A stretch of 64,000 bases of DNA, taken from the UHGV virus genome UHGV-0072281; one strand, written 5' to 3'. A program made the position numbers and the translations under genes. The DNA is from a virus. The notes under the pieces are model-generated. The model searched no databases, was not told the origin of the DNA, and saw only the letters and a program-made list of their open reading frames with translations. Below, in pieces: positions 10,589 through 33,924 of the stretch (positions are counted from its first letter, which is position 1; each line of letters starts with the position of its first letter).

Positions 10589-11152
10589 GTGGCCACATCT
10601 TACGTACCTGATTTGAGTCTGACCTCAGCAGAGCTAGTGGTCGCTTTAATCAATCATGATAACGGGTTACAGCTTACGCTAAACGAAATCCGTATTAGCG
10701 GAACCGTAACAAACCCATCACCAACAACTTCGCGTCGTAACACCATCACCGAAATCAGTAAAATCAGAAAACCGGATGGTGCGTCTGTTGTGGTCTACTA
10801 CGACAGACTTGACGCCGATGAGGTATTAACGTCTGAACCTATTTTGATTTCGTTAGACGGTACCGAAGCGAATATCCGTGACGTTCTGAGTGTTGTAAAT
10901 GAACACTGCGGTACGAACTTACAGCCTGAAGACTTACGCGTTTCTGATATTACTTCAGGTAACGATCCTATTGCCGTTAACGTTGCCGACGATTCACCTG
11001 CGTGGATGAATGCGTTTATGGTGACGTTATTTGATAAAACTGAGCGTGCGTTAGCGAACGAAGAAGATGAAATCTTCTGCATCGGTGACGATAGCGTTCT
11101 TACCTTTGAGGTTCCAGATGACGACTCAGCTGAAGAAAACCCGACTACATGA
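10589..11152 (+). CDS. Hypothetical protein, member of fibre-adjacent paralogue family
   Basis: GTG start with GGAGGG RBS; paralogous to 16883-17395 (shared PDLSLTS...NHD...YYDRLxA...GDDSV(V)LTF). Confidence 0.6.
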   Translation: MATSYVPDLSLTSAELVVALINHDNGLQLTLNEIRISGTVTNPSPTTSRRNTITEISKIRKPDGASVVVYYDRLDADEVLTSEPILISLDGTEANIRDVLSVVNEHCGTNLQPEDLRVSDITSGNDPIAVNVADDSPAWMNAFMVTLFDKTERALANEEDEIFCIGDDSVLTFEVPDDDSAEENPTT

Positions 11153-11357
11153 ACTTGATGATTTTTACCGGTAATGGAGGACAAAGCAAACTTTTATCAA
11201 GACTTAGCAAACCAAAATCATGAAAACGCGAAATTGAACATCGCTTTCACGTTAGAAGATGATGTATTAAAACCAGGGCAATAGTAACCCGCTTATAAAA
11301 AATTGGGGGGTAAACTACTCTCCTGATCTTTTAGCTCCCGATAGAGAATTAAATATC

Positions 11358-14300
11358 ATGGCTAAAGCGGTAAAGAAAATTCGTTTACACGATTTACGTC
11401 CATACACCGGTGATATCGGTGAAGGCGTTTTACTTTTCTCCAAGGATGAGAAAGATTATAAGTTACCAGTCCGTGAGGTTATTGCAGATATTGACACCGT
11501 ACGTAATGCGGTGGCTGATGCACAAACAGCAGCAGCACAATCACAAGAAGCTGCAACTCAGGCTACGCAAGCAAAAGTTTTAGCAGAAGCAGCAAAACAA
11601 CAAACTGACACAGTTGCGGCAACGGTTGCACAACAAGCGCAAACCGTAACCGAAAAAGCAACAGAAGTCAGTACAAAACATACCGAAGTGTTAGCCGCGA
11701 AAACGGCGGTAGACGCTCAGGCTGTGTCCATTAATGAGAAAGCACAAGCGGTAGCGACAAGTGAGGCAAACGTCACACAAGCAGAAACTACCGTTACGAA
11801 GAAAGCAGAAACTGTTGCCACACAAGCCGGGCGGGTCGAACAGTCACTTACGGCAGTTAACGAAGCTGTTGCGTCGGTAGAGTCGTCGAAAGCTGCCGTA
11901 GAAGCTAAAGCAACACAAGTTACTTCAGACAAAGAAACCGCAGAGAATGCGGCAACTCGTTCTGAGGCAGCCGCTAAGCGTGCGGAAGAAATCGTTGCTC
12001 AAGGTACTGTTGATGCAACAACGACCAGTAAAGGTGTCGTTAAACTTAATAATACCTTAACCAGTGACTCTGTTACTGAAGCGGCTACACCGTCAACGGT
12101 TAAGCAGTTAAATGATGAATTGCAGTTAAAAGCAAACCGTCACAACCCAACTTTTACCGGTGTGGTAAAAGCACCGACTCCTGCTTCGGATTCTAACGAC
12201 ACGAGCGTCTCAACGACTGCATGGGTACGGCAAGCGATTGCTGAATTAGTGGACTCTTCACCCGAGACGTTAGATACGTTATCAGAAATTGCAGCCGCGT
12301 TAGGAAACGATCCTAACTTTGCGACAACGATAACGAACCAACTAGCGGGTAAACAGCCGTTAAGTCCGTTACTGACAGCGATTGCCGCAGTCACCACCGC
12401 TGCAAACAAACTCCCTTACTTTACCGGTAGTAATCAGGTAGGGTTAGCGGATTTCACCTCGACTGCTCGCGAATTATTAGCGAAAGGGTCGACGGCCGAT
12501 ATCATCAGCTTCCTGGGGTTGAAAACCACCGTTGATAAAGCTGCGGGCGCTATGCAACGTAGTTCTAACGGTGCCGATATTCCCGATAAAGCCACCTTCG
12601 CGAAGAACATCGGGTTGTCAGCAGAGACGTACCTGAAGTTTAATGGGGAGATGCCAGTAGATGCAGACATCAACACCTTCGGCCCGGTTGAAGCGTTTAT
12701 GGGCGTTTGGTCTAAAGCCACGTCTACGAACGCAACAGTTGCAAAGAATTTTCCAGAAGAAAACGCAGTTGGTTGTTTAGAAGTTTTCAAAGCGGGTAAC
12801 TACAGCGGAAGTCAACGTTTTACTGTACGTAACGGTAACATCTATACACGTCATCTTACTGCTGCATGGAATGGGACAAACGGTCCTTGGTCAGAATGGC
12901 GTAATGTTGCTGGTTCCGCCAGAACGTTGAACGAACAAAATAATCTGAATGACTTGGGTGGTGAGGCCGCACTAGGTGTTTGGAGAAACAGTTCGAGTAC
13001 ATTAGCAACAACCGCGCTGAATTATCCTGAAGAAGGCTCTTTTGCCCAGGGCGTATTAGAAGTTCTCAAAGGTGGCAACTATAGTTACACACAACGCTAC
13101 ACTACCCGCAGAGGCAATGTATACGTTCGTTGTCTACAAGCCACGTGGGACGCTTCAAACCCGCAATGGGAAGAATGGCGCTGTGTTGGTCATCAATCTG
13201 TCAGCACATATTTCGAAGGCGATCTCGACACGTTAACTTCGCCTAACCGTTATAGCATTACTGATAAAGCGACAAACGTTCCTTTAATCGACGGTACTAA
13301 AATTATCGGTATCTTGGACGTCAGTCGTCGTTTTGATAACATTAGTGTCGAACAAAAATTCACCTCGTTTGGTTCTGGGAGCAAAACTACAGGGCGTATT
13401 TTCACACGTGTATTCTCCGGTCAATCAAACGGTAAATGGAGTGAGTGGCGAGAGGTTTTCACCTCGTATTCACTTCCGTTAGTTTTAGGTATCGGTGGGG
13501 TTGCAGCTAAGGTTGACCCGTTAGACTGGCAAACCTACGACTTCGTTCCTGGACAGATGTTAACGACGCCGTTGAACACCATGAAAAACATTCCTGCAGG
13601 AATGGATTGGGGTACTATTGACGGTAACTTAGTTAACATCCTTGTAGGGCCGTCTGACGACACCGGTACTGGTCGGAGTATGCTGGTTTGGCGTAGCACA
13701 GTGTCTGTTGCTAACTATCGCTTCTTTGCGGTACGTATCGCTGGTGAGAAGGGTAGTCGTACGATTACGCCGCGTCAGATGCCTGTGTTGAACGCAGCGC
13801 ACACCTGGTCAGAGAAACAAACGTTCTCTAAAGGTTTAGCGGGTGAATTAACCGGTAATGCTTCTTCAGCAACGAAACTTCAAACAGCCCGTTTAATCGG
13901 CGGCGTAAGTTTCGACGGCACCAAGGACATTGCACTCCCTGGCGTTAACGCACAAGGTACGCAGAACACCACTGGGAATGCGGCTACCGCAACCAAATTA
14001 CAAACGGCTAGAAATATCAACGGTGTGAAATTCGATGGCTCTGGAGACATCAATATCAACACCTTAGTAGGTCGTGGACGTGTCACTGCTCTGGCTGGAT
14101 CAAACAAAGGTACACCTGGTATCCAGATGTACGAGGTTTACAATAACGGTTATCCGACCGCGTATGGTAATTTACTGCATTTAGGTGGTGCTACTGCCGT
14201 AGGTGAAGGTGAACTACTGATCGGTTGGTCTGGTACCAGTGGCGCACACGCACCTGTTTATATCCGTAGTCGTCGAGACACTACAGATGCGCCGTGGTCA

Positions 14301-15674
14301 GAATGGGCGCAAGTTTATACTGCACGAGACAGCATTCCGGGTGTCAACACCACAGGTAATCAGGATACGACCGGAAACGCAGCTACCGCTACAAAACTTA
14401 AAACCACACGTAAAATAGGCGGGGTTAATTTTGACGGAACGGGTGATATTAACCTACCAGGTGTAAACCAGCAGGGCAACCAGAACACAACAGGTAACGC
14501 TGCGACAGCGACTAAACTCCAGACTGCCCGAAATATTGGTGGTGTGGCTTTCGATGGTACTAAAGACATCAGTTTACCTGGGGTAAACCAAACAGGGAAT
14601 CAGTCAACTACGGGGAACGCTGCTACTGCAACGAAGTTGCAGACAGCAAGAAGTATCAACAACGTACCATTCGATGGTTCGAAAGATATTACTCTAACGC
14701 CAAGTAATATCGGTGCGGCTGCCTCCTCAATGACTTGGTTAAATACCGGGGATAATGGTGCAGCGCTTAGTACAGATTCTTTTATTACTTTGTTGCAAAA
14801 TAACGGGGCTTTTAATTCCAGAACTTGGATAGCCCGATGCTCTTGGGCGTATGCTCAAAATGGCGTGATTCCAGATAGTGAAACAAAGTGCGGTACTATT
14901 CCACTTGCAGGCTCAGTTATTGAAGTTGTAAGTTTTGGGATGACCAACTACACCATTCGTATCACAACCCCTACGACGACATCGGTTAGCGGAGCAAAAA
15001 CCAACTCTGAGTTTATTTATTGCTATAATGGTAAAGATTATTCTCCAGGTTGGCGACGGCAGTATAACACTGTTAATAAACCGTCTGCTAGTGACGTTGG
15101 CGCTCTACCAACTGGTGGCGGTACTGTCAGTGGCGATTTGACGGTTAATGGTAAACTGGTTACGAAAAATGCCGATTTTCGAATTGCTTACGGTAGTTAC
15201 GGTTTCATTTTACGTAACGATGGCAATAGCACCTATTTCTTAGTAACAGCATCTGGTCAAGCTGCAACGGGTTCCTGGAATAACTTACGACCGATGTATT
15301 TTAGCAACTCTACCGGTCAAGTAACCTTCGGGCACAACGTTACTGGTAACGGGAACGGTTCGTTTAACGACGTACAGATTCGTTCTGACCGTCGTAACAA
15401 ACGTAATCTGGTGAAACTGGATAATGCATTAGACCGTTTAGAACTCCTTACCGGGTATCTGTACGAAGTTCAACATCCTGACGATGGATGGAATACTTCG
15501 GTAGGCTTAATTGCCCAGGATGCATTAGTTGCGTTACCTGAATTGGTTACTGAAGACGATGACGCTATTTCTGGTGAAAAACGTTTACGTTTGAACTATA
15601 ATGGTGTTATTGCGTTGTTGGTAGAGGGCATTAAAGACCTTCGTCGTGAGCTTAAGGAACTCAAGGGGAAATAA
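11358..15674 (+). CDS. Long tail fibre protein with C-terminal intramolecular chaperone (peptidase S74-like) domain
   Basis: 1438 aa; Ala/Thr/Gln-rich coiled-coil-like N-terminal region, about six copies of a ~30-aa repeat (TTGNAATATKLQTAR...FDG..DI.LPGVN), C-terminal block resembling the self-cleaving chaperone of endosialidase-type fibres. Confidence 0.8.
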   Translation: MAKAVKKIRLHDLRPYTGDIGEGVLLFSKDEKDYKLPVREVIADIDTVRNAVADAQTAAAQSQEAATQATQAKVLAEAAKQQTDTVAATVAQQAQTVTEKATEVSTKHTEVLAAKTAVDAQAVSINEKAQAVATSEANVTQAETTVTKKAETVATQAGRVEQSLTAVNEAVASVESSKAAVEAKATQVTSDKETAENAATRSEAAAKRAEEIVAQGTVDATTTSKGVVKLNNTLTSDSVTEAATPSTVKQLNDELQLKANRHNPTFTGVVKAPTPASDSNDTSVSTTAWVRQAIAELVDSSPETLDTLSEIAAALGNDPNFATTITNQLAGKQPLSPLLTAIAAVTTAANKLPYFTGSNQVGLADFTSTARELLAKGSTADIISFLGLKTTVDKAAGAMQRSSNGADIPDKATFAKNIGLSAETYLKFNGEMPVDADINTFGPVEAFMGVWSKATSTNATVAKNFPEENAVGCLEVFKAGNYSGSQRFTVRNGNIYTRHLTAAWNGTNGPWSEWRNVAGSARTLNEQNNLNDLGGEAALGVWRNSSSTLATTALNYPEEGSFAQGVLEVLKGGNYSYTQRYTTRRGNVYVRCLQATWDASNPQWEEWRCVGHQSVSTYFEGDLDTLTSPNRYSITDKATNVPLIDGTKIIGILDVSRRFDNISVEQKFTSFGSGSKTTGRIFTRVFSGQSNGKWSEWREVFTSYSLPLVLGIGGVAAKVDPLDWQTYDFVPGQMLTTPLNTMKNIPAGMDWGTIDGNLVNILVGPSDDTGTGRSMLVWRSTVSVANYRFFAVRIAGEKGSRTITPRQMPVLNAAHTWSEKQTFSKGLAGELTGNASSATKLQTARLIGGVSFDGTKDIALPGVNAQGTQNTTGNAATATKLQTARNINGVKFDGSGDININTLVGRGRVTALAGSNKGTPGIQMYEVYNNGYPTAYGNLLHLGGATAVGEGELLIGWSGTSGAHAPVYIRSRRDTTDAPWSEWAQVYTARDSIPGVNTTGNQDTTGNAATATKLKTTRKIGGVNFDGTGDINLPGVNQQGNQNTTGNAATATKLQTARNIGGVAFDGTKDISLPGVNQTGNQSTTGNAATATKLQTARSINNVPFDGSKDITLTPSNIGAAASSMTWLNTGDNGAALSTDSFITLLQNNGAFNSRTWIARCSWAYAQNGVIPDSETKCGTIPLAGSVIEVVSFGMTNYTIRITTPTTTSVSGAKTNSEFIYCYNGKDYSPGWRRQYNTVNKPSASDVGALPTGGGTVSGDLTVNGKLVTKNADFRIAYGSYGFILRNDGNSTYFLVTASGQAATGSWNNLRPMYFSNSTGQVTFGHNVTGNGNGSFNDVQIRSDRRNKRNLVKLDNALDRLELLTGYLYEVQHPDDGWNTSVGLIAQDALVALPELVTEDDDAISGEKRLRLNYNGVIALLVEGIKDLRRELKELKGK
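13850..14700 (+). repeat. In-frame tandem repeats inside the tail-fibre gene (coordinates approximate)
   Basis: Recurring nucleotide/peptide unit encoding NTTGNAATATKLQTAR-IGGV-FDG; repetition gives spurious antisense ORFs at 13880-14107 and 14360-14569. Confidence 0.7.
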
Positions 15675-15677
15675 AGG

Positions 15678-16220
15678 ATGGCAGTTGTTGAAGTTCCAGG
15701 TTATATCGGTTCTTCTGCAAAGGAAGTTACTGGCGAAGAGATGATGTCTGAAGCGATGACCGAACTCGGCGTTGTCGTACCAGGGATGATGTCTGAAATG
15801 GCAGGTCTGTCAATGGGTTGCTATGTAACGTTTGAGGAGTGGACTACCGTTGAAGATGGCCTTGATGTTCGATGGATCGGTGCGTCTACTTCCGAGTGGA
15901 CAGACGGCTACGGCAAACCGGTCGTTAAAGGAAAAATATCCGGGGCGAAGATGTTTGGTTTGAATGTCGAAGCGGAGCTGATCGGAATGCACTATAAAAA
16001 GCATCCGCGATTCCCTTGGTCAGTCGAACTAAAATGTCGCTGCGAAAAAGGTAGCAATTTCAGTTATACGTTAGACGGTGTAAGCGGTTCTGTATCGAGT
16101 GATGGTACCGGTACAACCGGAATGCAAATTCGTACATTCAAATTTAACAATTTCAGTGCAGCATTTAAGGAAAAGATAGAGCAAGTTGGTGTCAAGATGC
16201 CAACATCACGTAAATATTAA
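15678..16220 (+). CDS. Small Gly-rich protein immediately after the tail fibre gene (possible adhesin or assembly factor)
   Basis: 180 aa; paralogous to 16277-16780 (shared N-terminus MAV...G.SAK..TGE..MS.A...LG...P.MMS.M.G.SMGC). Confidence 0.6.
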   Translation: MAVVEVPGYIGSSAKEVTGEEMMSEAMTELGVVVPGMMSEMAGLSMGCYVTFEEWTTVEDGLDVRWIGASTSEWTDGYGKPVVKGKISGAKMFGLNVEAELIGMHYKKHPRFPWSVELKCRCEKGSNFSYTLDGVSGSVSSDGTGTTGMQIRTFKFNNFSAAFKEKIEQVGVKMPTSRKY

Positions 16221-16227
16221 AAGAGTA

Positions 16228-16253
16228 GCGTAGGGGTGACCTCCCCCCTACGC
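16228..16253 (+). other. Stem-loop (gcgtagggg...cccctacgc) in intergenic region
   Basis: Inverted repeat with 8-nt loop; no clear T-run. Confidence 0.3.
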
Positions 16254-16264
16254 GAATCTTAACA

Positions 16265-16274
16265 GGGGGGGGGG
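16265..16274 (+). repeat. Homopolymeric G10 tract 2 nt upstream of ATG 16277
   Basis: Direct count of 10 consecutive G; occupies the RBS position. Confidence 0.9.
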
Positions 16275-16276
16275 TA

Positions 16277-16780
16277 ATGGCGGTTAACTCGGGTTGGGTC
16301 GGTTCTTCGGCTAAGAGCGAAACGGGCGAACAGTGGATGAGCGCTGCGGGTGCCAAATTGGGATTGGGTAAACCTTTTATGATGAGTCAAATGGTGGGAC
16401 GATCTATGGGCTGTAAAATTTCAACTGCTGCATATAGTGATTCTTTAGGTAAGAAATGGGGTGCTGTGGGATCAAGTTGGCCATTAACTCAGAAAAATCA
16501 GGGAACCATTCAAAACGCGGGTAACTGCGGGGTGGGAACTTTAGTAGGTATAGAGTTACAATTAACGACGGTAGTTGCCAACGCAACGCCTACTCTAGCG
16601 GTCTATTTACAAGGCGGCAGGGCCTCTAACATCACTGCAAATCTAGGCGGTAACACTTGTGCGCTGACCTATCAGCAGGTTATTAATGGCCAACATTATT
16701 ACTGGACCAATAACATTAGTGCCGCGTTCCAAAACGTGATGAAATCGACCGGTACACTAAGAGATTTCAAAATTAGTTAA
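16277..16780 (+). CDS. Small Gly-rich protein, paralogue of 15678-16220
   Basis: 167-aa ORF; N-terminal similarity to upstream gene; poly-G immediately upstream. Confidence 0.6.
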   Translation: MAVNSGWVGSSAKSETGEQWMSAAGAKLGLGKPFMMSQMVGRSMGCKISTAAYSDSLGKKWGAVGSSWPLTQKNQGTIQNAGNCGVGTLVGIELQLTTVVANATPTLAVYLQGGRASNITANLGGNTCALTYQQVINGQHYYWTNNISAAFQNVMKSTGTLRDFKIS

Positions 16781-16882: not shown

Positions 16883-17395
16883 GTGGAACAATTCACGCCA
16901 GATTTGTCGTTAACTTCACTTAACATGGTTATTTCACTGGTTAACCATGACCTCCAACTTGACTTGCAAGAGAATGAGGTCGAAGTCAGTGACGTAAAGA
17001 CCAGTGACGAAATGGAACGTGACACCACTGCTGTTGTAAAGATAAAACGTTCTGGTAACAGAACGTTACAAATCTACTACAACCGTTTAACTGCAGAGCG
17101 GTGGTTAAACCGACAACCTGTACTTGTAAAAGTAACAGGCGAAGGGTTTAATGCGCACGATCTAATCGAATCCATCAACACCGTTTGTGGTGCTAACTTA
17201 CAAACCGACGATTTAACCGACCAGTCGTTCACGGTGGGTAAAGACGCGGTAATATTTAGCATCGCTCCGAGTTCCCTCGGCTACAAAGGTCAGTTCTCCG
17301 TGGTGGTTTTCGGTCCAGATGAAACACCGTGTGGTATCGGTGACGATTCTGTCGTGCTAACGTTTGACAATAAAATCTTAACCTTTGGAGAGTAA
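16883..17395 (+). CDS. Hypothetical protein, paralogue of 10589-11152
   Basis: GTG start with AGGAGG RBS; shared motifs with 10589 gene; precedes second fibre gene. Confidence 0.6.
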   Translation: MEQFTPDLSLTSLNMVISLVNHDLQLDLQENEVEVSDVKTSDEMERDTTAVVKIKRSGNRTLQIYYNRLTAERWLNRQPVLVKVTGEGFNAHDLIESINTVCGANLQTDDLTDQSFTVGKDAVIFSIAPSSLGYKGQFSVVVFGPDETPCGIGDDSVVLTFDNKILTFGE

Positions 17396-17398
17396 TAG

Positions 17399-19531
17399 AT
17401 GAGTCAGCCAATTGGAAAGAAGCGTATTCATGAGCTGGAAACATTTGAAGGTGAATTAGCAGGAGTCGTTCTGCTGATGTCCAAAGACGACAAAGAATAT
17501 AAACTTGACGCATCTCGTTTACAAAACGATAAGCTGTATCTAGCTTGCGGTACACCTTTTCCTAAACTAGTATTCCAAAACGATAAAACACTTTACAATA
17601 TTAATCCGTACAGTGACTACGACACTTATGAAGTTTCTGCAAATAAAGGTCGGGTATCTAAAGTTACTCGTGCCACATTTAGCGTGATGGCTGGGTCTTT
17701 ATCGGTTGGCGAGAAAATACAACTTACAGTTACGCGCAATGGCGTACCATTTCAATTTGAAGTTACCGTATCGGGACCGCGTATCACTACTCCCACTTGG
17801 ACACTTCCAGTTAATGGCGGTAAATTGAGCGTAACGCCAACCTTTGAAGTAACTGACTATCAAGCCTATCCATATACCAACACCGGTAATCAACAGACCG
17901 CTGCCAGTTGGGAAATTTCCACTAGTGAAGATTTCTCAACTACAGTTTTCCAATCACTGAACGACACCGTCAACAAAACAACCATCAGTATCCCAGAAGG
18001 TAAGTTAGAACCAGGTCAAACTTACTACGCACGTGTTCGCTTCCATAACGCAGTAACCGAAAGTGATTGGTCCGTTGTTCAATTCTCAGTCGGCGAAGCA
18101 TTTATTCAGCGTCCTGCACTGATCGAACCCACCGTAGACATGGTGTTAAGCGCATCGAATATTACACTTAAAACTGATGTTTTTAAATGGGTCGGTGACG
18201 AACCTGCGGAGACCCACGTATCGACTGACTGGCAGGTTACTTACGGTAGCAACGATTTTGACGAAATGAATAATCTCGTTAACCAATTAGAAGATGCGAT
18301 TAACCTGACGTCGCTTAAATTACCGTCTGATCGGGTTTACGTTAATAACAGTTATCGTGCACGCGTGCGTTTTCGTGGTGAGAGAAGCGTCAGTGATTGG
18401 TCTGAACCTTTAACGTTCCGTGTAAGTCGCGGGAACGTACCAACAAGTGAATTCCAGTCAATTTCTGCTTCTGGATTTACAGGTAATTCAATCGGTGCTG
18501 AGTTGGCATGTACTGACGACGGTTTGCTGTTTGCTGCTACTGGCGTTGCACAGAAAGCGAAATTCTTACATATCTTTAAGAAAGACTTCCCGTCTTACAA
18601 CAAAGTTGCCTCTTTAACAGCTGCTACTGAGGTTGACGCAGACAGAGATGGTCGCTGTCCGGTCAGTATGTCAGCCGACGGTAAGATTATTGTTGTCGGT
18701 GTTAGCGCATCTAAAGCTAACGAAGACCACGGCGAAGTTATCGTTTACCGTAACCCAGATAACGCTGAGTGGAGTACAATCAACGGAATAACTTTAGCGG
18801 GATTACCCACAGAAGGGTTCCATGGCCTTGCAGTAAAACTGTCAAAAGACGGCAATCGTTTGATTGTGGGTAACGGTACGAAAGTGCTGTCTATGTATTC
18901 CAATACCGATCAATTTGCTACACGTACGGCTGTGTCGCCGACACTAAGTGCCGAAGACGCCACTTGTGGTGGTATTGGTAGCATTGCAATGTCTGAAGAC
19001 GGTAACGGTTTAGTGCTTGGCGAAACTAACGGAACGAAATTCCACGTACTGGCTTGGGAATCGGATAGTTGGGTGACTAAGGCATCTATTACACCAAAAG
19101 ACTTGACTGAGAAAGCAACGATTAAAGTCGCTGCTTCTTCTGACTTGTCTACGATTCTTGTTTCTGTAGTTGAGACACACAAATACTACGTTTACAAGAA
19201 AACCGGTGATAGTTGGTCTCTGTTCCAAACCTTGGATTATACCGAACTGGATTACTCCATTACTTCTACCCGTTACCCGACGGGAGACATTAATGTTGCG
19301 CCTTCCGGAAGCTGGTTAATTTTCGGTATGGTGGGTTCGTTGGGTTCTATTTTCGAATTTCGTAATAGTACCTACCAACGACAAAATAGCATTTACGGCA
19401 GTAGTCTTAGCGATCCTGAGAATTACCACTTCTATACGTCACAAGCCATCAGTGCACAAAACGATTTGTTCGTCGGTGCTGATGTTAAAGAAAGTGCTTC
19501 GTACTTCCCACAAATCAAAGTTTACATGTAA
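17399..19531 (+). CDS. Tail fibre / tail spike-like protein with probable fibronectin type III-like repeats
   Basis: 710 aa; N-terminus (KKRIHELETFEGELAGVVLLMSKDDKEYKL) parallels N-terminus of 11358 fibre (KKIRLHDLRPYTGDIGEGVLLFSKDEKDYKL); repeated ~90-aa beta-rich units ending ..YYARVRFHN.., ..YRARVRFRG.. Confidence 0.65.
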   Translation: MSQPIGKKRIHELETFEGELAGVVLLMSKDDKEYKLDASRLQNDKLYLACGTPFPKLVFQNDKTLYNINPYSDYDTYEVSANKGRVSKVTRATFSVMAGSLSVGEKIQLTVTRNGVPFQFEVTVSGPRITTPTWTLPVNGGKLSVTPTFEVTDYQAYPYTNTGNQQTAASWEISTSEDFSTTVFQSLNDTVNKTTISIPEGKLEPGQTYYARVRFHNAVTESDWSVVQFSVGEAFIQRPALIEPTVDMVLSASNITLKTDVFKWVGDEPAETHVSTDWQVTYGSNDFDEMNNLVNQLEDAINLTSLKLPSDRVYVNNSYRARVRFRGERSVSDWSEPLTFRVSRGNVPTSEFQSISASGFTGNSIGAELACTDDGLLFAATGVAQKAKFLHIFKKDFPSYNKVASLTAATEVDADRDGRCPVSMSADGKIIVVGVSASKANEDHGEVIVYRNPDNAEWSTINGITLAGLPTEGFHGLAVKLSKDGNRLIVGNGTKVLSMYSNTDQFATRTAVSPTLSAEDATCGGIGSIAMSEDGNGLVLGETNGTKFHVLAWESDSWVTKASITPKDLTEKATIKVAASSDLSTILVSVVETHKYYVYKKTGDSWSLFQTLDYTELDYSITSTRYPTGDINVAPSGSWLIFGMVGSLGSIFEFRNSTYQRQNSIYGSSLSDPENYHFYTSQAISAQNDLFVGADVKESASYFPQIKVYM

Positions 19532-20104: not shown

Positions 20105-20148
20105 GGTAGCAGGGGCTAAGCCCCTGCTACCTTTTTCTTTATTTTTTC
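20105..20148 (+). terminator. Rho-independent terminator
   Basis: Hairpin ggtagcagggg-ctaag-cccctgctacc followed by T-rich run. Confidence 0.8.
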
Positions 20149-25145: not shown

Positions 25146-25937
25146 ATGGCTACTTTAACTATTGCTAATACTCTTACTCCTCGTAAAATGAAACGTCTTA
25201 CGACTTTTATCTCTCGCTGCACACCTAGCGTCAAATTGGAAACGACCTCTGACAAAATCACGTTTTGGACTTATAGTGACGTAGAACTTGAAACTGTGAA
25301 AGGGTTTGTTAATGGGCTAGTTGAAAATACCGCATCATCACTCGTTATTAGCTTCACTAGCGAAAATAGCGAGATGAACGAAGCAACAATTTCGGATGCA
25401 ATCTATTACGCGACTGGCAATAATTTTGATACCGCCGACAGACTTAATCTTTCTAATAACCTTTGTAAAATCGACGACAAGACTTACATCCTGTATTTTA
25501 ATAGTCCGTTCCCACAAATCGGAGGTTTTAAACATTATCTTTCAATGAAACCTATCTTGGGTATAGAAGTTTTCTCTACGGATCTTGAAGACAATGTACA
25601 GCTAAACCGTATTCGTTATCGTGGTAAACGTCCAACCGAAACAGATTCTGAATACGGTGCTTGTGCTGAATGTATTCTGGTTCATAAAGATCGCTTCGCT
25701 TACTACAACCAAGACGATATTGAACGTCTTGTAGAAGCCGTCAATTTATACACTCGCGATTTTGCATTCCGATTGGTTTATAACACTTATCCGAATGGTG
25801 TAACGGCTTTCTATATCCCTCCCTACCTTTTCGACAAGGTTTATTGTATTCTGTCTAAAGAACTGGAAAAAATTAAACCGGTTTTCGTGGGCGAAGACGC
25901 TATGGCTTATATCAGGAGTGGTGCTAATGTCCTCTAA
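25146..25937 (+). CDS. Hypothetical protein
   Basis: 263-aa ORF with AGGAAAA RBS-like region. Confidence 0.6.
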   Translation: MATLTIANTLTPRKMKRLTTFISRCTPSVKLETTSDKITFWTYSDVELETVKGFVNGLVENTASSLVISFTSENSEMNEATISDAIYYATGNNFDTADRLNLSNNLCKIDDKTYILYFNSPFPQIGGFKHYLSMKPILGIEVFSTDLEDNVQLNRIRYRGKRPTETDSEYGACAECILVHKDRFAYYNQDDIERLVEAVNLYTRDFAFRLVYNTYPNGVTAFYIPPYLFDKVYCILSKELEKIKPVFVGEDAMAYIRSGANVL

Positions 25938-26358
25938 ACTTAAAGATGAATTGCGTGATTACATTCGTAAATACCCAGCCAGTATTCCGGTACTGGCTTC
26001 ACTCTCTCTGTCGGGTATGGACCTTAATACCTTAACGGTAGAAAAATTCCACGAAGTGGTAAAATCATCGTACCAAATTGTTACCGATATGTCAGTGCGG
26101 AAACGTGCTGACTACCCAGACGGTGATTTCGGTACGGAGATGTTCACAGACTACGCAGTTGCGTATCTGATGGGACGTCACTTTATCGATAAACTCAATA
26201 CGGCTGTAGAAGGAGAAACAGTTTCGGAAATTGTCAATGCTTGGCAACAACGTACTGTGAGTGATGCTTACTGTCGTCAAGCCTTAAAGAAAATGTCGGC
26301 AGTAGCGCTAACCAATGACCAACGTGCTTTAGAGTTCCTTAAGCACAATTACGAATAA
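25927..26358 (+). CDS. Hypothetical protein, paralogue of 27642-28073
   Basis: ATG 25927 with GGAG RBS; N-terminus LKDELRDYIRKYPASIPVLA parallels LKDDIRNYIRNNPIALGVLA. Confidence 0.55.
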   Translation: MSSKLKDELRDYIRKYPASIPVLASLSLSGMDLNTLTVEKFHEVVKSSYQIVTDMSVRKRADYPDGDFGTEMFTDYAVAYLMGRHFIDKLNTAVEGETVSEIVNAWQQRTVSDAYCRQALKKMSAVALTNDQRALEFLKHNYE

Positions 26359-27641: not shown

Positions 27642-28073
27642 ATGTTTTTCGTATTAAAAGATGATATCCGTAACTACATTCGTAACAACCCTATTGCTCT
27701 GGGCGTTTTAGCAGGTTTCTGTCGTCCAAATACTGATTTCGATTTAGTTAAGTTAGAAGAATATCAGGAAATTGTGAATACTAACTACATGCACATCTGT
27801 AGCTGGGGTAAACGTCCTCGCGAAGAGTACCCTGTAGGTGAGTTAGGTGACACTATGCATCGTGACCAGAATCTGATGCACGAATTCGTTGAATACACAC
27901 TGGAAAATCTTAACTATCCGCTTCTGGTCGACACTGTACCAGAAATGGTTGACGAATGGTTAAGTCGTGTTTACAATGACCCTACTGCCAGCACTCTACT
28001 GAGTCAGATGTCGCAAACTTCTCGTGATATCGACACCCGGACCCTGATGTACCTAGCACACAACGTTCGCTAA
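27642..28073 (+). CDS. Hypothetical protein, paralogue of 25927-26358
   Basis: 143-aa ORF with AAAGGAG RBS. Confidence 0.6.
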   Translation: MFFVLKDDIRNYIRNNPIALGVLAGFCRPNTDFDLVKLEEYQEIVNTNYMHICSWGKRPREEYPVGELGDTMHRDQNLMHEFVEYTLENLNYPLLVDTVPEMVDEWLSRVYNDPTASTLLSQMSQTSRDIDTRTLMYLAHNVR

Positions 28074-28080
28074 CCTTACT

Positions 28081-28140
28081 CCGCTATAGGCTTCGGTCTA
28101 TAGCGGAATTAATTTTCTTTCCCTTTTCTTTTTTGTTATT
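28081..28140 (+). terminator. Rho-independent terminator
   Basis: Hairpin ccgctatagg-cttcgg-tctatagcgg followed by long T-rich tract. Confidence 0.7.
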
Positions 28141-28239: not shown

Positions 28240-29088
28240 ATGTCTCTTACGTCAAAACAGAAACTGCTAAAACTCATCAACACTGAAAACAATATTAGTC
28301 CACCGTTGACTTTCAGTGATGTTGATATCGGAGAACCTACTGGTACTGGGGTTGATACCCAGGTGGTTCTGACCTCTAAACTCAAAGGCGATGAGTCTAC
28401 TACTTTAACAGTGACTTACCACCGTCGTAATTTACCTGACTACTTAACCGGTGAGTTGGTTTTCGGTAACGACAGTGTGGTAACCGCATCAGATTTGCTT
28501 AATGCGATCAACGCAAAATACAACCTAAATATTTTACCCTCGGATATCGTTGACGCAAAAGTTGAAGGTGAAACCCATCAGCTTACCGCTAACGAGAAAT
28601 CTTACGAGTGGTGCGGTGTAGTAACACTTACGCTGCGTGATCCTATTGACCTGACTGAACTGTTACCAGTTACTCAATTAGAGAATCTGGTAGAGTATCC
28701 GTCCACTAAGAAAGGTAACGCTGCGGTTTATTCTCACCCGATCGATTTCACCGCAGAAAAAGATTACCTTGACCCGATTACTATCAACGACACCGTAGAC
28801 TTGGTCGAGTTAGCCGCTAAACTGGATGGCGTCGTTGACGAGAAATGGGTAAGTGTGCCTAAGAACGCGACTAACAACCTGTACGGTGCGAAGGTTATTT
28901 ACGATGGCCCAACCGCAGGTTACGAAGGCGCAAATACGAAGTTCACTCGTGTGTTGGTGCTGACGCTCAGCCCGCTGTGTTCTAACCTGACAGGTAATCT
29001 GTTAATCCACTTTAACGGTACCGATCGTCCGAAGTCGAAGATTGAATTAGCACAGACTAATCCGGTCTTACCGGGATTCTTAGATTAA
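28240..29088 (+). CDS. Hypothetical protein, fibre-adjacent-type paralogue family
   Basis: 282-aa ORF; N-terminal region similar in pattern to 29102 and 32238/32820/33394 family. Confidence 0.55.
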   Translation: MSLTSKQKLLKLINTENNISPPLTFSDVDIGEPTGTGVDTQVVLTSKLKGDESTTLTVTYHRRNLPDYLTGELVFGNDSVVTASDLLNAINAKYNLNILPSDIVDAKVEGETHQLTANEKSYEWCGVVTLTLRDPIDLTELLPVTQLENLVEYPSTKKGNAAVYSHPIDFTAEKDYLDPITINDTVDLVELAAKLDGVVDEKWVSVPKNATNNLYGAKVIYDGPTAGYEGANTKFTRVLVLTLSPLCSNLTGNLLIHFNGTDRPKSKIELAQTNPVLPGFLD

Positions 29089-29101: not shown

Positions 29102-29581
29102 ATGACCAATCAAGAAACTATCTTCGACCTTATTAAAAAGGCTAACCCAGACGCTGAGTTCGACACCACCAAAGTCACACTGGGTGACCCGGTCGTAACC
29201 ACCGGTACGTACAATACCGAAATCACAGTTGCGTCAATTAAGAATCTCGGTTATACTAACGAACAAACGTTCCAGTATAACCGGATCGACGCAGGTTTGT
29301 ATTTCCTGAACGTATTACCGAAACTGTTGGTGGAATCGGCAACAACGACCGCTGACTTACTGCCTGTCATTAACGAGCAGTACAGCCTAACCCTTACAGA
29401 AGACGATGTATGGGTAGAGCAGGTTGGTGAGTTACCGTTAGACGGAAGCGCAATCGAACACGGTATTTTCTTCCGTCCTGAGTGTCTGACCTGGGTTGGC
29501 GGTTTTACAGTGCGAGTTGCGCGTAAACCGGCTGGCGCTACGCCACCCGAGACGGGGGCTCGCGCTAAGAAGAAAAAATAA
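29102..29581 (+). CDS. Hypothetical protein, same family
   Basis: 159-aa ORF, GAGGA RBS; basic C-terminal tail ARAKKKK. Confidence 0.55.
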   Translation: MTNQETIFDLIKKANPDAEFDTTKVTLGDPVVTTGTYNTEITVASIKNLGYTNEQTFQYNRIDAGLYFLNVLPKLLVESATTTADLLPVINEQYSLTLTEDDVWVEQVGELPLDGSAIEHGIFFRPECLTWVGGFTVRVARKPAGATPPETGARAKKKK

Positions 29582-29585: not shown

Positions 29586-29620
29586 AGGGTGGGGTAATCC
29601 CCACCCTCTTTTCTTTTTTG
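29586..29620 (+). terminator. Rho-independent terminator
   Basis: Hairpin agggtgggg-taat-ccccaccct followed by T-run. Confidence 0.8.
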
Positions 29621-30335: not shown

Positions 30336-30350
30336 GGAAAGGTGTGGGTA

Positions 30351-31509: not shown

Positions 31510-31579
31510 GCGCATAATCCTTAACTTAGGGTGATTGTACCTTATTTTGTATAAACCGTCTTAGAACGCGTTCTACGGA

Positions 31580-32099: not shown

Positions 32100-32237
32100 A
32101 ATCTCACCCTTATTAAAATTAAGAAAAAATATTTTTTCAGGTTAGCGCCTACTGCCAACCGTCATATCTATATTTTACGAAATGTCTAAAATAACATTCT
32201 TATGCAATCCACCCCTACCACTTACGAGGTAAAAACG

Positions 32238-32768
32238 ATGGCTAAAGCCTTCAATCAGCAGCTTATCGAAGCTGTAAAAGCCAAAAACCCTGAAACTTCT
32301 TCTAATCTAACCGTAGAAGACGTTGACTTTGGTGCCGTGGAAGCACATAGCGGAAATGGTGGCCGTAACACCAAAGTTACGCTGACTGCAAAAGAAGAAA
32401 GTGCTAACTTTACTGGCAGCAAAGAATTCCACTACACTCGTCTGGCTTCCCAAGACTTGATCGGTGCCAAAGCTTACGAACAAGCTGGTAATCTCGATCT
32501 GGAAAACTCAGCCATCGTAACCAAACTCAACGAAGAAATGGTTACTAAAGGTTATACCGACGACGCGTTTGTCGAAAATGAACTGACAATTGAGAAAACT
32601 GACGGCGATAGCGGTGCTAAAGTTTACACTATCAAAGTAAAAGATGCCCACATCAAATTCTTGACCGGCACCATTGCCACTTTCACTTATACCAACCCAG
32701 CGCCTGAAAAAGTAGCCCTTAGCGGTCTGGAAGGTGAACTTGATGGCTTCACAGCCCCAAAAGACTAA
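32238..32768 (+). CDS. Hypothetical protein, first of three tandem paralogues
   Basis: ATG 32238 with GAGG RBS (track begins 32202); shared core ..NTKVT(L/M)TA...S.NF.G...(L/F).Y.RL....GELDGF(T/K). Confidence 0.6.
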   Translation: MAKAFNQQLIEAVKAKNPETSSNLTVEDVDFGAVEAHSGNGGRNTKVTLTAKEESANFTGSKEFHYTRLASQDLIGAKAYEQAGNLDLENSAIVTKLNEEMVTKGYTDDAFVENELTIEKTDGDSGAKVYTIKVKDAHIKFLTGTIATFTYTNPAPEKVALSGLEGELDGFTAPKD

Positions 32769-32819
32769 TGCTTTAACAACCAAACTAAGGCGGTAAATCC
32801 GCCTTATTAGGAGAAAAAA

Positions 32820-33359
32820 ATGGATAGTCAAGCTACTAACCAAATGCAGCTAGTCGAGTTATATAACGCTGCCAACACTGGTTTGCCGCACAAATTGGTG
32901 TCGTCTGAAGTAAAATTTGGTCTGCCCTCTGCAAACGACGACGGTGAAAAAAATACCAAAGTTACAATGACCGCTTTACCCGGCTCAGAAAATTTCCGTG
33001 GTCAGATTGAACTTAAGTACGACCGATTAAACCCCTCCATAATTTCTGATTCTCTGGGAGTGGTCAAACTCGAGGGGGAGATAGAAAAATGGCGGGAAGA
33101 TAACTATGTTCGCGCCTATCTGCAACATTATATTAACCAAGTAAAACCCAGAGACACAATAGCCACAGGCGATATTGTTTATAGTTACGAAGAAGTAAAA
33201 GAACAGGATAAACTTGTCGCACTACGAGTTACCTGCACTGTCGCTGAAAGAAACCATAAATATCTGCAAGGCGTAATGCTTGTCTTTGAAGTTAGTCCAG
33301 AAAAGATCGATCTTTCCACCACTAACGGAGAGTTGGACGGCTTTAAACCGACCGAGTAA
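32820..33359 (+). CDS. Hypothetical protein, tandem paralogue
   Basis: 179 aa; strong similarity to 33394 gene (QM.LV.LYNAANTGLPH...KNTKVTMTAL.GSENF.G.IELKYDRL). Confidence 0.65.
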   Translation: MDSQATNQMQLVELYNAANTGLPHKLVSSEVKFGLPSANDDGEKNTKVTMTALPGSENFRGQIELKYDRLNPSIISDSLGVVKLEGEIEKWREDNYVRAYLQHYINQVKPRDTIATGDIVYSYEEVKEQDKLVALRVTCTVAERNHKYLQGVMLVFEVSPEKIDLSTTNGELDGFKPTE

Positions 33360-33393
33360 CCACTAACAACCAACTTTTATAGAGATTAAATTA

Positions 33394-33924
33394 ATGGCAG
33401 CTACTAACCAGATGATGTTGGTCGCGTTGTATAATGCTGCTAATACTGGGCTACCGCATCAGATTACTGATAAAGAAGTGTCCTTTGGTCAACCTGTTGC
33501 GCTGGAAGGCGAAGGTAAAAACACCAAAGTTACCATGACAGCATTGGCGGGTTCCGAAAACTTTAAAGGCTCAATCGAACTGAAATACGATCGACTGGAA
33601 CCGGGTGTTGTAGGGCGTATTGAACTAACTGACGATCTGTCTCGTTGGGTAGAAGAGAACGAACTGCGAGCCTGGTTACAGTATTATATCAACAAAGTAA
33701 AACCTAACGACACGATCGCGCCGGGAGATGTTGTTTATTCTACAGAAGACCAAAAAGACGAGCATGAAAACGTTACTCTGCGAACAGTAACGTGTACCGT
33801 TACCGAAAGAAACCTCCGTTATAAACCAGGTGTAATGGCAACTTTCGTAATTACACCGAAGGTTGTCGATAATCGTATTGACCTGGCCACCACCAACGGT
33901 GAATTGGACGGTTTTACTGCTTAA
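33394..33924 (+). CDS. Hypothetical protein, tandem paralogue
   Basis: 176 aa; see previous. Confidence 0.65.
   Translation: MAATNQMMLVALYNAANTGLPHQITDKEVSFGQPVALEGEGKNTKVTMTALAGSENFKGSIELKYDRLEPGVVGRIELTDDLSRWVEENELRAWLQYYINKVKPNDTIAPGDVVYSTEDQKDEHENVTLRTVTCTVTERNLRYKPGVMATFVITPKVVDNRIDLATTNGELDGFTA

What the first reader, a model, noticed from the sequence alone, without database searches (positions are those of the whole stretch)
10589..33924. Dispersed multigene family of small proteins, mostly next to fibre genes
Seen in sequence: 10589-11152 and 16883-17395 are clear paralogues, each immediately upstream of a fibre gene. 32238-32768, 32820-33359 and 33394-33924 form a tandem triplet with a shared core (NTKVTMTAL.GSENF.G.IELKYDRL...GELDGF); 28240-29088 and 29102-29581 show a similar pattern more weakly. 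Inference: diversified accessory or structural proteins (decoration, adaptor, or receptor-binding helper) expanded by duplication.
Basis: partly seen in the sequence, partly recalled or inferred. Interest (0 to 1): 0.5.

Follow-up and report, generated by a model that had tools for sequence, protein, structure and literature searches.

The report
Jumbo-phage DUF7941 virion protein family
The seven small genes are real relatives of one another, but they belong to an already described family (Pfam DUF7941, "paralog family B" of Salmonella phage SPN3US) of virion proteins of nucleus-forming jumbo phages. The family is thought to link head-to-tail into flexible filaments and adaptors at the edge of the baseplate.

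Summary
All seven ORFs pass the curated Pfam threshold for PF25613 (DUF7941), and a family HMM finds exactly these seven in the window.

They form three groups:
- **A/B** (10589, 16883): PHROG 2935.
- **C/D** (28240, 29102): PHROG 1037. These are the best Pfam matches and the hub of the family, not weak members.
- **E/F/G** (32238, 32820, 33394): PHROG 4862.

A/B and E/F/G are related only through C/D.

The window is a new ~225 kb relative of Salmonella phage SPN3US (Chimalliviridae). The family is SPN3US "paralog family B" (2016-17). It has one solved member, phiKZ gp127, in the outer baseplate (PDB 9XQD). A 2026 Goslar preprint proposes that members polymerise head-to-tail into host-recognition filaments. 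So these are new members of a known kind.

Only two of the seven adjoin fibre genes. In the window and relatives, 16 of 17 A/B-type genes are followed by a gene that opens with the same ~40-residue module. The rest of that protein is interchangeable: a T-even-like long fibre, a 710-aa fibre, or 206-aa and 133-aa proteins. I did not find this cassette described; I read only the DUF7941 passages of the preprint.

Where the family sits in the virion is contested: head in SPN3US proteomics, baseplate in phiKZ cryo-EM.

The parts
10589..11152 (+). A: short DUF7941 protein (187 aa), fibre-linked subgroup (PHROG 2935). Orthologue of SPN3US gp122 (45% identity).
   Evidence: Pfam PF25613 at 71.5 bits. 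PHROG 2935, E=4e-28. AF2 model has mean pLDDT 79.9; residues 11-150 mostly 80-92 per ten-residue block, tail 151-175 at 52-60, and 176-187 below 50. The only significant PDB fold hit is phiKZ gp127 N-terminal domain, 9xqd_0, E=2.3e-6, TM 0.64. Orthology.
11118..11174 (+). 18-codon stub (MTTQLKKTRLHELDDFYR*) of a deleted gp123-like gene: a truncated copy of the fibre N-terminal module, overlapping the 3' end of A.
   Evidence: Read from the sequence. Window 11000-11158 aligns to L004 255-413 at 89%, and window 11246-11389 aligns to L004 3802-3950 at 84%. About 3.4 kb carrying a gp123-like and a 1001-aa gp124-like gene is therefore missing here.
11358..15674 (+). Long tail fibre (1438 aa). It has the N-terminal ~40-aa module, a long Ala/Thr/Gln-rich segment, a phage fibre repeat, a T4 gp34-like trimerisation domain and a C-terminal S74 intramolecular chaperone.
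   Evidence: Pfam hits: Gp34_trimer, Phage_fiber_2, Peptidase_S74. Module at residues 1-41: 56% identical to SPN3US gp123 and 44% to fibre 2.
15678..16780 (+). Two paralogous gp38-type adhesin genes (15678-16220 and 16277-16780). They are cargo accessories, not family members.
   Evidence: Pfam Gp38_N at 43 and 73.6 bits. The pair is paralogous, E=1.6e-12. About 150 nt are 85-89% identical to adhesin genes of Stx phages.
16883..17395 (+). B: short DUF7941 protein (170 aa), a lineage-specific paralogue of A. Its stop lies 3 nt before the start of fibre 2.
   Evidence: Pfam at 51.4 bits. PHROG 2935. 33% identical to A. Relatives at 69-95% identity sit on 220-226 kb contigs.
17399..19531 (+). Fibre 2 (710 aa), opening with the same N-terminal module. 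This is the variable cargo of the B cassette.
   Evidence: The module scores 86 bits against the module HMM. In relatives the same position holds a 206-aa protein, or a 133-aa plus a 348-aa protein, or nothing.
28240..29088 (+). C: full-length DUF7941 protein (282 aa) with N-terminal domain, linker and C-terminal domain, plus a clade-specific 23-residue C-terminal extension that carries a second linker-like motif (KIELAQTNPVLPGF).
   Evidence: Pfam at 176.1 bits over profile positions 5-275 of 276. The C-terminal domain matches phiKZ gp127, 9xqd_0, E=6e-6. 46% identical to the SPN3US orthologue. The extension is conserved in L004 and L006 and absent in SPN3US.
29102..29581 (+). D: short DUF7941 protein (159 aa) that ends in a basic Pro/Ala/Lys tail instead of the linker motif.
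   Evidence: Pfam at 98.7 bits. PHROG 1037. 37% identical to the N-terminal domain of SPN3US gp141. Tails compared.
32238..32768 (+). E: short DUF7941 protein (176 aa from this start). Orthologue of SPN3US gp160 (49% identity).
   Evidence: Pfam at 38.5 bits. PHROG 4862, E=1.5e-42. Most homologues are 178 aa, which favours the 32238 start over the ATG at 32202. Orthology.
32820..33359 (+). F: short DUF7941 protein (179 aa), a lineage-specific duplicate.
   Evidence: Pfam at 41.6 bits, matching residues 10-176 to profile positions 11-171. 59% identical to G.
33394..33924 (+). G: short DUF7941 protein (176 aa), a lineage-specific duplicate.
   Evidence: Pfam at 39.8 bits. AF2 model has mean pLDDT 91.2 and pTM 0.77. 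It gives 60 BFVD fold hits at E<=1e-3. The hits that carry a name are jumbo-phage proteins: virion structural proteins, one tail fibre protein and two uncharacterised entries.

Best explanation
The seven ORFs are paralogous members of the chimallivirus DUF7941 family (SPN3US 'paralog family B'; phiKZ gp126/gp127; Goslar gp22/gp23 and relatives).

Each has a ~150-residue alpha/beta N-terminal domain followed by a tail or linker peptide. Only C also has the family's C-terminal domain. The most likely mechanism, taken from Goslar and phiKZ, is that the linker or tail of one protomer docks on the N-terminal domain of the next. The proteins would then chain head-to-tail into flexible filaments or adaptors anchored at the outer rim of the baseplate, where they help the virion find its host.

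In this phage the family has three roles, each in its own terminator-bounded transcription unit:
1. **C+D.** The phiKZ gp127/gp126-like pair. C is the likely baseplate-proximal anchor and hub.
2. **E/F/G.** Counterparts of the very abundant SPN3US gp160, and so the likely bulk building blocks. They share an almost invariant C-terminal donor peptide (DLSTTNGELDGF). This peptide aligns with the linker of the full-length type and is repeated at the extreme C-terminus of C.
3. **A and B.** Each is followed by a gene for a receptor-binding protein that opens with a shared ~40-residue module. They are the likely adaptors that plug interchangeable fibres into the network.

Shown here: homology, fold, gene order, and the module-cargo pattern. 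Taken from orthologues: presence in the virion and abundance. Inferred: polymerisation, which peptide docks where, and the adaptor role of A and B.
For: **Family membership**
- Pfam gathering score passed by all seven.
- Exactly seven hits in the window.
- hhalign links both outer groups to the C/D type.
- The C-terminal domain of C matches phiKZ gp127 by sequence.
- The A model's only significant PDB fold hit is 9xqd_0.
- The G model's named BFVD hits are jumbo-phage virion or fibre proteins.

**Chimallivirus context**
- Gene-by-gene synteny with SPN3US: DUF488, A-type gene, module gene; then C-type gene, endolysin, DUF1353, E-type gene, DUF4376, radical SAM.
- Seoulvirus is a genus of Chimalliviridae.
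- Relatives lie on 220-226 kb contigs.

**SPN3US family B is DUF7941**.

**Virion presence of orthologues**
- SPN3US gp160 has SC/M 9.46 and gp141 has 9.39, both above the tail sheath at 8.84.
- Goslar gp22 is estimated at about 580 copies and gp23 at about 2140 copies per virion. Purified gp22 forms filaments, and AF3 predicts head-to-tail dimers.
- phiKZ gp127 caps the band of gp139 dimers in each star lobe of the outer baseplate.

**Tail equals linker**
- The hhalign alignment of E/F/G runs through the tail onto the linker of the full-length type.
- The tail is nearly invariant across homologues.
- The same motif occurs only four times in the six-frame window, each at the C-terminus of C, E, F or G.

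**Cassette**
- The module is conserved in front of unrelated cargo.
- 16 of 17 strong A/B-type genes are followed within 250 nt by a module ORF.
- Stop and start are 3 nt apart or overlapping.
- DUF7941 fused directly to beta-propeller, Ig or glycine-rich domains exists elsewhere (Goslar gp86/92/161).

**Transcription units**: terminator-like hairpins at 10527-10554 and 20105-20131, at 28080-28107 and 29586-29607, and at 33965-33991.
Against: - SPN3US family B proteins were all detected in tailless particles and were therefore assigned to the head (PMC5105663, PMC5694885). This conflicts with an exclusively baseplate-anchored model.
- The SPN3US orthologue of A (gp122) was not detected in wild-type virions. 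Its neighbours gp123 and gp124 were detected.
- Some relatives carry three module-bearing proteins but only two A/B-type genes, and one relative has a B gene with no cargo. The pairing is therefore not strictly one to one.
- No docking could be computed here. The structure tool returns no coordinates and accepts no two-chain input.
- The G tail is modelled with fairly high confidence in the monomer, so it is not simply disordered.
- The Goslar work is a preprint, and its filament cloud is a model.
Confidence: 0.7

Rival explanations
1. The proteins are head components, either decoration or internal/ejected proteins as first proposed for SPN3US paralog family B, and have nothing to do with the baseplate or host recognition.
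For: All SPN3US family B members were found in purified tailless particles of the 64_112(am27) mutant and were labelled 'Head' or 'Head ejection?'. gp160 and gp141 are as abundant per unit mass as the tail sheath.
Against: [quoted passage not shown]
- Goslar's DUF7941 proteins are listed among the unmodelled virion proteins, so they were not placed in that structure, capsid or otherwise. Purified gp22 self-assembles into filaments, which could co-purify with any particle, tailed or not.
- Family members are fused to carbohydrate-binding, beta-propeller or Ig domains, and two sit in a fibre operon.
- The reported prohead-protease substrates in SPN3US (gps 45, 47, 50, 53, 54, 75, 81, 245) do not include family B members.
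Confidence: 0.12
2. A and B only are not structural adaptors. They are assembly or attachment factors (chaperone-like) for the module-bearing fibres encoded next to them, and are absent or sub-stoichiometric in the finished virion.
For: SPN3US gp122, the A orthologue, was not detected in wild-type virions, although gp123 and gp124 were. It did appear in a mutant particle preparation. The genes are tightly coupled to the fibre genes.
Against: - They share fold and family with proteins that are structural in phiKZ and Goslar.
- Known fibre chaperones are usually encoded downstream of the fibre; this statement rests on general knowledge.
- gp123 itself gave only 7 spectra, so a partner of similar abundance could fall below detection.
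- All ten Goslar DUF7941 proteins were detected in virions.
Confidence: 0.15
3. The two subgroups are not one family, and the weak similarity between the triplet and the fibre-adjacent pair is chance.
For: The direct comparison is weak: BLASTP E about 0.3 and hhalign E=0.2.
Against: All seven pass the curated Pfam threshold. Both groups match the C/D-type profile, at E=2e-19 and E=2e-13. All cross-hit PHROG 1037. The G model retrieves DUF7941-type virion proteins by fold.
Confidence: 0.01

Closest known systems
Salmonella phage SPN3US 'paralog family B' (the 17-gene tandem array ending at gp154, plus gp83, gp160/161, gp237 and candidate gp122; Thomas 2016 PMC5105663, Ali 2017 PMC5694885)
   Same: Same Pfam family in syntenic positions. 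A matches gp122 at 45%, C matches the first gene of the array at 46%, and E matches gp160 at 49%. The same neighbours are present: DUF488, endolysin, DUF1353, DUF4376 and radical SAM genes.
   Different: Copy numbers differ. This window has 2 genes where SPN3US has 17 in tandem, 3 where SPN3US has one gp160, and 2 fibre-linked copies where SPN3US has one. C carries an extra C-terminal motif that the SPN3US orthologue lacks. The cargo behind A is a T-even-like long fibre with gp38 adhesins, not gp123+gp124.
phiKZ gp127 (with gp126), outer peripheral baseplate, PDB 9XQD (PMC13250141)
   Same: The C-terminal domain of C matches gp127 by sequence (E=6e-6). The A model matches the solved gp127 N-terminal domain (E=2.3e-6, TM 0.64). 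A long-plus-short gene pair occurs in both phages.
   Different: Sequence identity is low (18% in the structural alignment). phiKZ is reported to have only two or three members. Whether C occupies the same site next to a gp139 homologue is untested, and no gp139 homologue was sought in the window.
Goslar gp22/gp23 and eight further DUF7941 proteins (bioRxiv 10.64898/2026.04.21.720040)
   Same: Both have a full-length member (N-terminal domain, linker, C-terminal domain) next to a short member (N-terminal domain plus linker), several dispersed copies, and a link to host-recognition genes. A, C and D match Goslar gp34, gp33 and gp31 weakly.
   Different: In Goslar the receptor-binding domains are fused to the DUF7941 module (gp86, gp92, gp161). 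Here they are separate polypeptides with their own conserved N-terminal module, encoded directly after a short DUF7941 gene. The module was found only in SPN3US-like and Asesino-like phages.
Modular N-terminal anchor domains of receptor-binding proteins in other phages (for example the conserved N-termini of tailspikes and fibres of T7-like, K1-5/SP6-like and Viunalikevirus phages). This comparison rests on general knowledge and was not tested here.
   Same: A conserved short N-terminal attachment module sits in front of freely exchangeable receptor-binding bodies, and recombination breakpoints fall at the module boundary.
   Different: The module gave no match in the PDB sequence search or in Pfam/PHROGs scans of the fibres. 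The proposed partner is a DUF7941 protein, not a gatekeeper or baseplate hub protein.

Membership tests
Pfam PF25613 DUF7941 (SPN3US paralog family B) | Sequence match to the family model above the curated gathering score (27 bits) | tested here: met
   All seven pass, with 71.5, 51.4, 176.1, 98.7, 38.5, 41.6 and 39.8 bits. SPN3US family B members give 79-284 bits, and gp160 gives 42.6.
Pfam PF25613 DUF7941 (SPN3US paralog family B) | N-terminal ~150-residue globular domain with the fold of the solved phiKZ gp127 N-terminal domain (9XQD chain 0) | tested here: met
   The A model has 9xqd_0 as its only significant PDB hit: E=2.3e-6, probability 1.00, 149 columns, TM 0.64. The G model gives no PDB hit at E<=1e-3 (best E=0.08) but 60 BFVD hits at E<=1e-3, the named ones being jumbo-phage virion or fibre proteins. 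The feature is therefore met for A and only indirectly for G. B to F were not modelled.
Pfam PF25613 DUF7941 (SPN3US paralog family B) | Architecture: N-terminal domain, then a flexible linker, with or without the C-terminal globular domain | tested here: met
   C covers profile positions 5-275 of 276, and its C-terminal domain matches gp127. The other six match mainly the N-terminal part of the model: up to about position 155 for A, B and D, 171 for F, and only 74-106 for G and E. Each then ends in a short tail. The A tail has pLDDT 52-60, then below 50. The G tail is modelled at about 84, so disorder is not shown for it.
Pfam PF25613 DUF7941 (SPN3US paralog family B) | Encoded by a chimallivirus (nucleus-forming jumbo phage) | tested here: inconclusive
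   There is strong synteny and 45-49% orthologues with SPN3US (Seoulvirus, Chimalliviridae), and relatives lie on 220-226 kb contigs. The hallmark genes themselves (chimallin, PhuZ, split RNA polymerases) were not looked for in the window. The domain is also reported outside phages, in Spiroplasma Spaid-like proteins.
Pfam PF25613 DUF7941 (SPN3US paralog family B) | Incorporation into the virion | not testable with these tools
   Known only for orthologues. SPN3US family B members, including gp160 and gp141, are virion proteins, but gp122 (the A-type) was not detected. All ten Goslar members were detected.
Pfam PF25613 DUF7941 (SPN3US paralog family B) | Head-to-tail self-association (linker of one protomer on the N-terminal domain of the next) and filament formation | not testable with these tools
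   The structure tool takes one chain and returns no coordinates or PAE. Indirect support: the E/F/G tail aligns to the linker of the full-length type and is nearly invariant.
Phage tail-fibre assembly chaperones (Tfa / gp38 / gp57-like) | Match to a chaperone or adhesin family | tested here: not met
   The seven give no such Pfam match and the four tested (A, C, G and fibre 2) give no NCBIfam match. The true gp38-type genes are separate ORFs at 15678-16780. A and B lie upstream of the fibres, not downstream.
   The models are mixed alpha/beta, with two to three helices plus six to nine strands. No Ig-like hits were found in the PDB.

The most novel reading that the evidence does not exclude
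The short A/B-type DUF7941 proteins and the ~40-residue N-terminal module of the genes behind them form a plug-and-socket system. It lets SPN3US-like jumbo phages hang interchangeable receptor-binding proteins on the DUF7941 network; in this clade these include a T-even-style long fibre with gp38 adhesins. Cassette swaps, deletions and orphaned sockets, visible between near-identical phages, would then set host range. In this picture the family is a set of typed donor peptides and acceptor domains: the GELDGF type on C, E, F and G; the CIGDDxVLT-plus-acidic type on A and B; and a basic cap on D. These would determine filament order and branching.
Probability: 0.3. Interest if true: 0.55.

Novelty: new member of a known kind. 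Interest (0 to 1): 0.3.

Why it matters
The family itself is not new. It was seen as a paralogue family in SPN3US in 2016-17, it has a Pfam entry, one member is solved in phiKZ, and a 2026 preprint gives it a function.

The window adds three things:
- **A compact, well-ordered example.** Seven genes fall into three terminator-bounded units, in an undescribed ~225 kb phage lineage that turns up in Salmonella, Shigella and E. coli assemblies.
- **A testable rule.** A short DUF7941 gene is followed by a gene whose product starts with a conserved module and continues with exchangeable receptor-binding parts. If the two bind each other, this is a handle for re-targeting jumbo phages and for reading their host range from sequence.
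- **A sharper open question.** SPN3US proteomics places the family in the head, while phiKZ cryo-EM and the Goslar model place it at the baseplate.

Tried and rejected
- **Read-through construct.** B and the start of fibre 2 are in the same frame, so I tried to model them as one chain to test docking. The structure tool also returns no coordinates or PAE, so docking cannot be judged here.
- **Large-database search with the module.** The 47-residue module profile returned only three short fragments and gave no view of cargo diversity.
- **Genome-contig scan for A/B-type genes.** No confirmed locus.
- **Module against PDB sequences.** Only chance hits, to Elongin-C, at E>=0.12.
- **G model against the PDB.** Nothing significant.
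- **Direct hhalign of A/B against E/F/G.** Not significant; the link is only through the C/D type.
- **Rosetta-stone test.** No DUF7941 fusion protein among 344 collected sequences carries the module in cis. Fibre 2 is not homologous to the beta-propeller cargo of the fusion P0283.
- **Hypervariable segment in E-type proteins.** In 96 sequences at 76-89% identity, variation is spread evenly, so there is no sign of targeted diversification.
- **False positives.** Two long hits of the representative search (P0318, P0302) are YDG/Big_9 adhesins, not family members.
- **Sigma-70 promoter scan.** No more hits than in shuffled sequence. It is also not appropriate for these phages.
- **Ig-like decoration and fibre-chaperone readings.** Considered and rejected; see the membership tests.

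Full report
**1. The observation**

The region is a run of + strand phage genes. The seven named ORFs exist at the stated coordinates.

All-against-all BLASTP of 37 ORFs gave:
- 10589 vs 16883: 33% identity, E=6e-30.
- 32820 vs 33394: 59%, E=1e-71.
- The third triplet member vs both: about 30%, E=1e-12.
- 10589 vs 28240: E=1e-5.
- 28240 vs 29102: E=0.02.
- Triplet vs the rest: only E about 0.3.

Two results settle the family question. All seven pass the curated Pfam threshold for PF25613 (DUF7941), and 28240 covers the whole 276-position model at 176 bits. An HMM of the seven finds exactly seven ORFs in the six-frame translation of the 64 kb window, with the next hit at E=0.19.

PHROGs divides them into three groups, and all cross-hit PHROG 1037:
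- A/B (10589, 16883): phrog_2935.
- C/D (28240, 29102): phrog_1037.
- E/F/G (32238, 32820, 33394): phrog_4862.

Profile-profile comparison links A/B to the C/D type (probability 99.2%, E=2e-19) and E/F/G to the C/D type (98%, E=2e-13). A/B against E/F/G directly is not significant (E=0.2).

**2. What phage this is**

The window has no close DNA relative among 50,697 deposited phage genomes. It is gene-for-gene syntenic with Salmonella phage SPN3US (Seoulvirus) and Erwinia phage Asesino:
- DUF488 gene, then an A-type gene, then a module gene.
- Later a C-type gene, GH108 endolysin, DUF1353 gene, a reverse-strand gene, an E-type gene, a reverse-strand DUF4376 gene, and radical SAM genes.

Seoulvirus and Erskinevirus are genera of Chimalliviridae. 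Proteins 70-95% identical to B, and 75-98% identical to E, F or G, sit on contigs of 220-226 kb. Many of these contigs are deposited as Salmonella, Shigella or E. coli assemblies. The window therefore comes from an undescribed ~225 kb SPN3US-related jumbo phage lineage of enterobacteria.

**3. The family is already known**

*Goslar.* A full-text search for DUF7941 found the Goslar cryo-EM preprint. It reports:
- Ten DUF7941 proteins in Goslar virions.
- gp22 at about 580 copies, with N-terminal domain, linker and C-terminal domain.
- gp23 at about 2140 copies, with N-terminal domain plus linker.
- AlphaFold3 head-to-tail dimers in which the linker of one protomer docks on the N-terminal domain of the next.
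- Filaments formed by purified gp22.
- Fusions of the module to carbohydrate-binding, hydrolase and LRR domains.
- A proposed 'fibre cloud' anchored on the peripheral baseplate.

*phiKZ.* The phiKZ structural atlas places one gp127 at the end of the band of gp139 dimers in each of six star lobes of the outer baseplate.

*SPN3US.* Proteomics had earlier defined 'paralog family B': about 20 members, mostly a 17-gene tandem array ending at gp154, plus gp160/161, gp83, gp237 and candidate gp122. I confirmed that nine sampled genes of that array, and gp160, are DUF7941.

Orthology, from position and identity:
- A matches gp122 (45%).
- C matches the first gene of the array (46%).
- E matches gp160 (49%).
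- B (29% to gp122), D (37% to the N-terminal domain of gp141), F and G (35-36% to gp160) are lineage-specific paralogues.

This phage therefore has 2 genes where SPN3US has 17, and 3 where SPN3US has 1.

**4. Structure**

- AF2 with alignments of homologues gave a confident model of G: mean pLDDT 91.2, pTM 0.77.
- It gave a good model of the N-terminal domain of A, with a low-confidence tail.
- Both models are mixed alpha/beta, not Ig-like.
- The A model has one significant PDB fold match, the solved N-terminal domain of phiKZ gp127 (9xqd_0, E=2.3e-6, TM 0.64).
- The C-terminal domain of C matches the same chain by sequence.
- The G model has no PDB match. It has 60 BFVD matches, and the named ones are jumbo-phage proteins: virion structural proteins, two uncharacterised entries, and a 683-aa 'tail fiber protein' of Serratia phage Moabite. 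The Moabite alignment covers only about 165 of its residues.
- A phmmer scan of 1.84 billion representatives found only 220 relatives. Most are 160-180 or 270-290 aa, and a few are fusions.

**5. Tails**

The E/F/G proteins end in an almost invariant peptide, (K)xDLSTTNGELDGF or VALSGLEGELDGF. hhalign aligns this peptide with the linker of the full-length type.

C has, beyond the end of the Pfam model, a 23-residue extension carrying the same kind of motif (KIELAQTNPVLPGF). It is conserved in close relatives and absent from the SPN3US orthologue. A pattern written after seeing these four tails occurs only at these four C-termini in the six-frame window. Because the pattern was derived post hoc, this is descriptive, not a test.

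A and B end in a different conserved tail (CIGDDxVLT), which is followed by acidic residues in A and most of its homologues but not in B. D ends in a basic Pro/Ala/Lys tail.

If the Goslar docking model holds, these are distinct classes of donor peptide. C would carry two donors, and D none of the known kind. That is inference.

**6. The fibre link**

Only A and B adjoin fibre genes. The two fibres share nothing except their first ~40 residues, which are 44% identical. The same module opens SPN3US gp123 (56% identical), Asesino gp140, and the genes behind B in relatives.

The rest of the protein behind B differs completely:
- 710 aa here.
- 206 aa in L004, L005 and L008-L011.
- 133 aa plus a separate 348-aa protein in L006.
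- Nothing in L012.

Across the window and 16 loci, 16 of 17 strong A/B-type genes are followed within 250 nt by a module-bearing ORF. One further A-type gene (L015) lies at a contig end and could not be scored. Stop and start are 3 nt apart or overlap.

tblastn finds the module only in SPN3US-like and Asesino-like phages, and always at that position.

The pairing is not strictly one to one. L004, L013 and L014 have three module proteins for two A/B genes, in the order A, gp123-like, gp124-like, long fibre. In the window a ~3.4 kb deletion has removed the gp123-like and gp124-like genes. It left an 18-codon stub of the module at 11118-11174 and brought the long fibre next to A.

Strong terminator-like hairpins define three units:
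- 10527-10554 and 20105-20131 bracket A, fibre 1, two gp38 adhesin genes, B, fibre 2 and a DUF4376 gene.
- 28080-28107 and 29586-29607 bracket C and D.
- 33965-33991 follows G.

**7. Conflict and rivals**

SPN3US family B proteins were found in tailless particles and called head proteins. gp160 and gp141 are as abundant per unit mass as the sheath. This disagrees with a purely baseplate-anchored model. Self-assembling filaments might simply co-purify with any particle, or the family might also bind the head or neck.

gp122, the A orthologue, was not detected in wild-type virions, although gp123 and gp124 were, as tail-side proteins. This keeps open the possibility that A and B are assembly factors and not stable adaptors.

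The 'not one family' rival is refuted.

**8. Verdict**

These are new members in a new phage lineage. The conserved-module cassette behind the A/B-type genes is a modest new detail that is worth a docking test.

Noticed in passing
window 11358-16780: A chimallivirus carries a T-even-style host-recognition set: a 1438-aa fibre with a T4 gp34-like trimerisation domain and an S74 chaperone, followed by two paralogous gp38-type adhesin genes. About 150 nt at the start of the second adhesin gene are 85-89% identical to adhesin genes of Stx phages. This points to recent exchange with E. coli/Shigella phages.
   Followed up: partly
window 11118-11174 and 11159-11245: An 18-codon stub of a module-bearing gene and about 88 nt of filler mark a ~3.4 kb deletion of gp123-like and gp124-like genes, relative to L004 and L013. 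The same deleted layout is found in L006.
   Followed up: yes
L012 6001-6812 (IMG/VR UViG_3300045988_095954): A close relative has a B-type DUF7941 gene with no module-bearing cargo behind it, an orphaned 'socket'. Its tail is altered.
   Followed up: partly
window 19541-20101 (+) and 33996-34670 (-): Two DUF4376 proteins each sit at the end of a DUF7941 unit, one after fibre 2 and one convergent with G. The SPN3US counterpart of the second is gp161, which one SPN3US paper lists in the text as a family B member while its table lists gp160. My family HMM does not hit either DUF4376 ORF.
   Followed up: partly
window 32238-32768; L007 4974-5501: E and its SPN3US orthologue gp160 give weak, sub-threshold hits to the Spiralin domain PF05215 (E=0.005 and 3e-4). 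Separately, a 2026 paper reports DUF7941 in Spaid-like proteins of Spiroplasma. The family may therefore not be strictly chimallivirus-specific.
   Followed up: no
window 25918-26358 and 27642-28073; 24608-25102: Another paralogue pair of unknown function (31% identity, E=1.5e-24). Also a 164-aa ORF made of two ~80-residue internal repeats, visible in the translation (RLDYTNELVDKEKYKFTV / RLNYSNELVSKEHYKFTV).
   Followed up: no
window 40413-55452 (-): Three giant paralogous virion proteins (1727, 1394 and 1441 aa), plus a 401-aa one sharing their N-terminal region (phrog_2163). They are probably the counterparts of SPN3US paralog family C (gp168-170), which that paper likens to phiKZ gp131, a baseplate/fibre protein. 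This equivalence rests on size and position and was not tested by direct comparison.
   Followed up: no
window 35181-36503 and 39018-39929 (-): Two radical SAM proteins (phrog_1802). The first is syntenic with SPN3US radical SAM genes that also lie just beyond the E-type DUF7941 gene.
   Followed up: no
window 29102-29581 (last ~20 codons): D ends in a Pro/Ala-rich basic tail (…RKPAGATPPETGARAKKKK). The tail varies in sequence but is always basic in relatives. It stands where other short family members carry a conserved docking-type peptide.
   Followed up: partly
contigs of P0002, P0011, P0023, P0038, P0084, P0159 and others: Near-complete ~220-226 kb genomes of this phage lineage are repeatedly deposited inside Salmonella, Shigella and E. 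coli isolate assemblies. This suggests carriage of the phage in cultures (carrier state or pseudolysogeny) or contamination.
   Followed up: no
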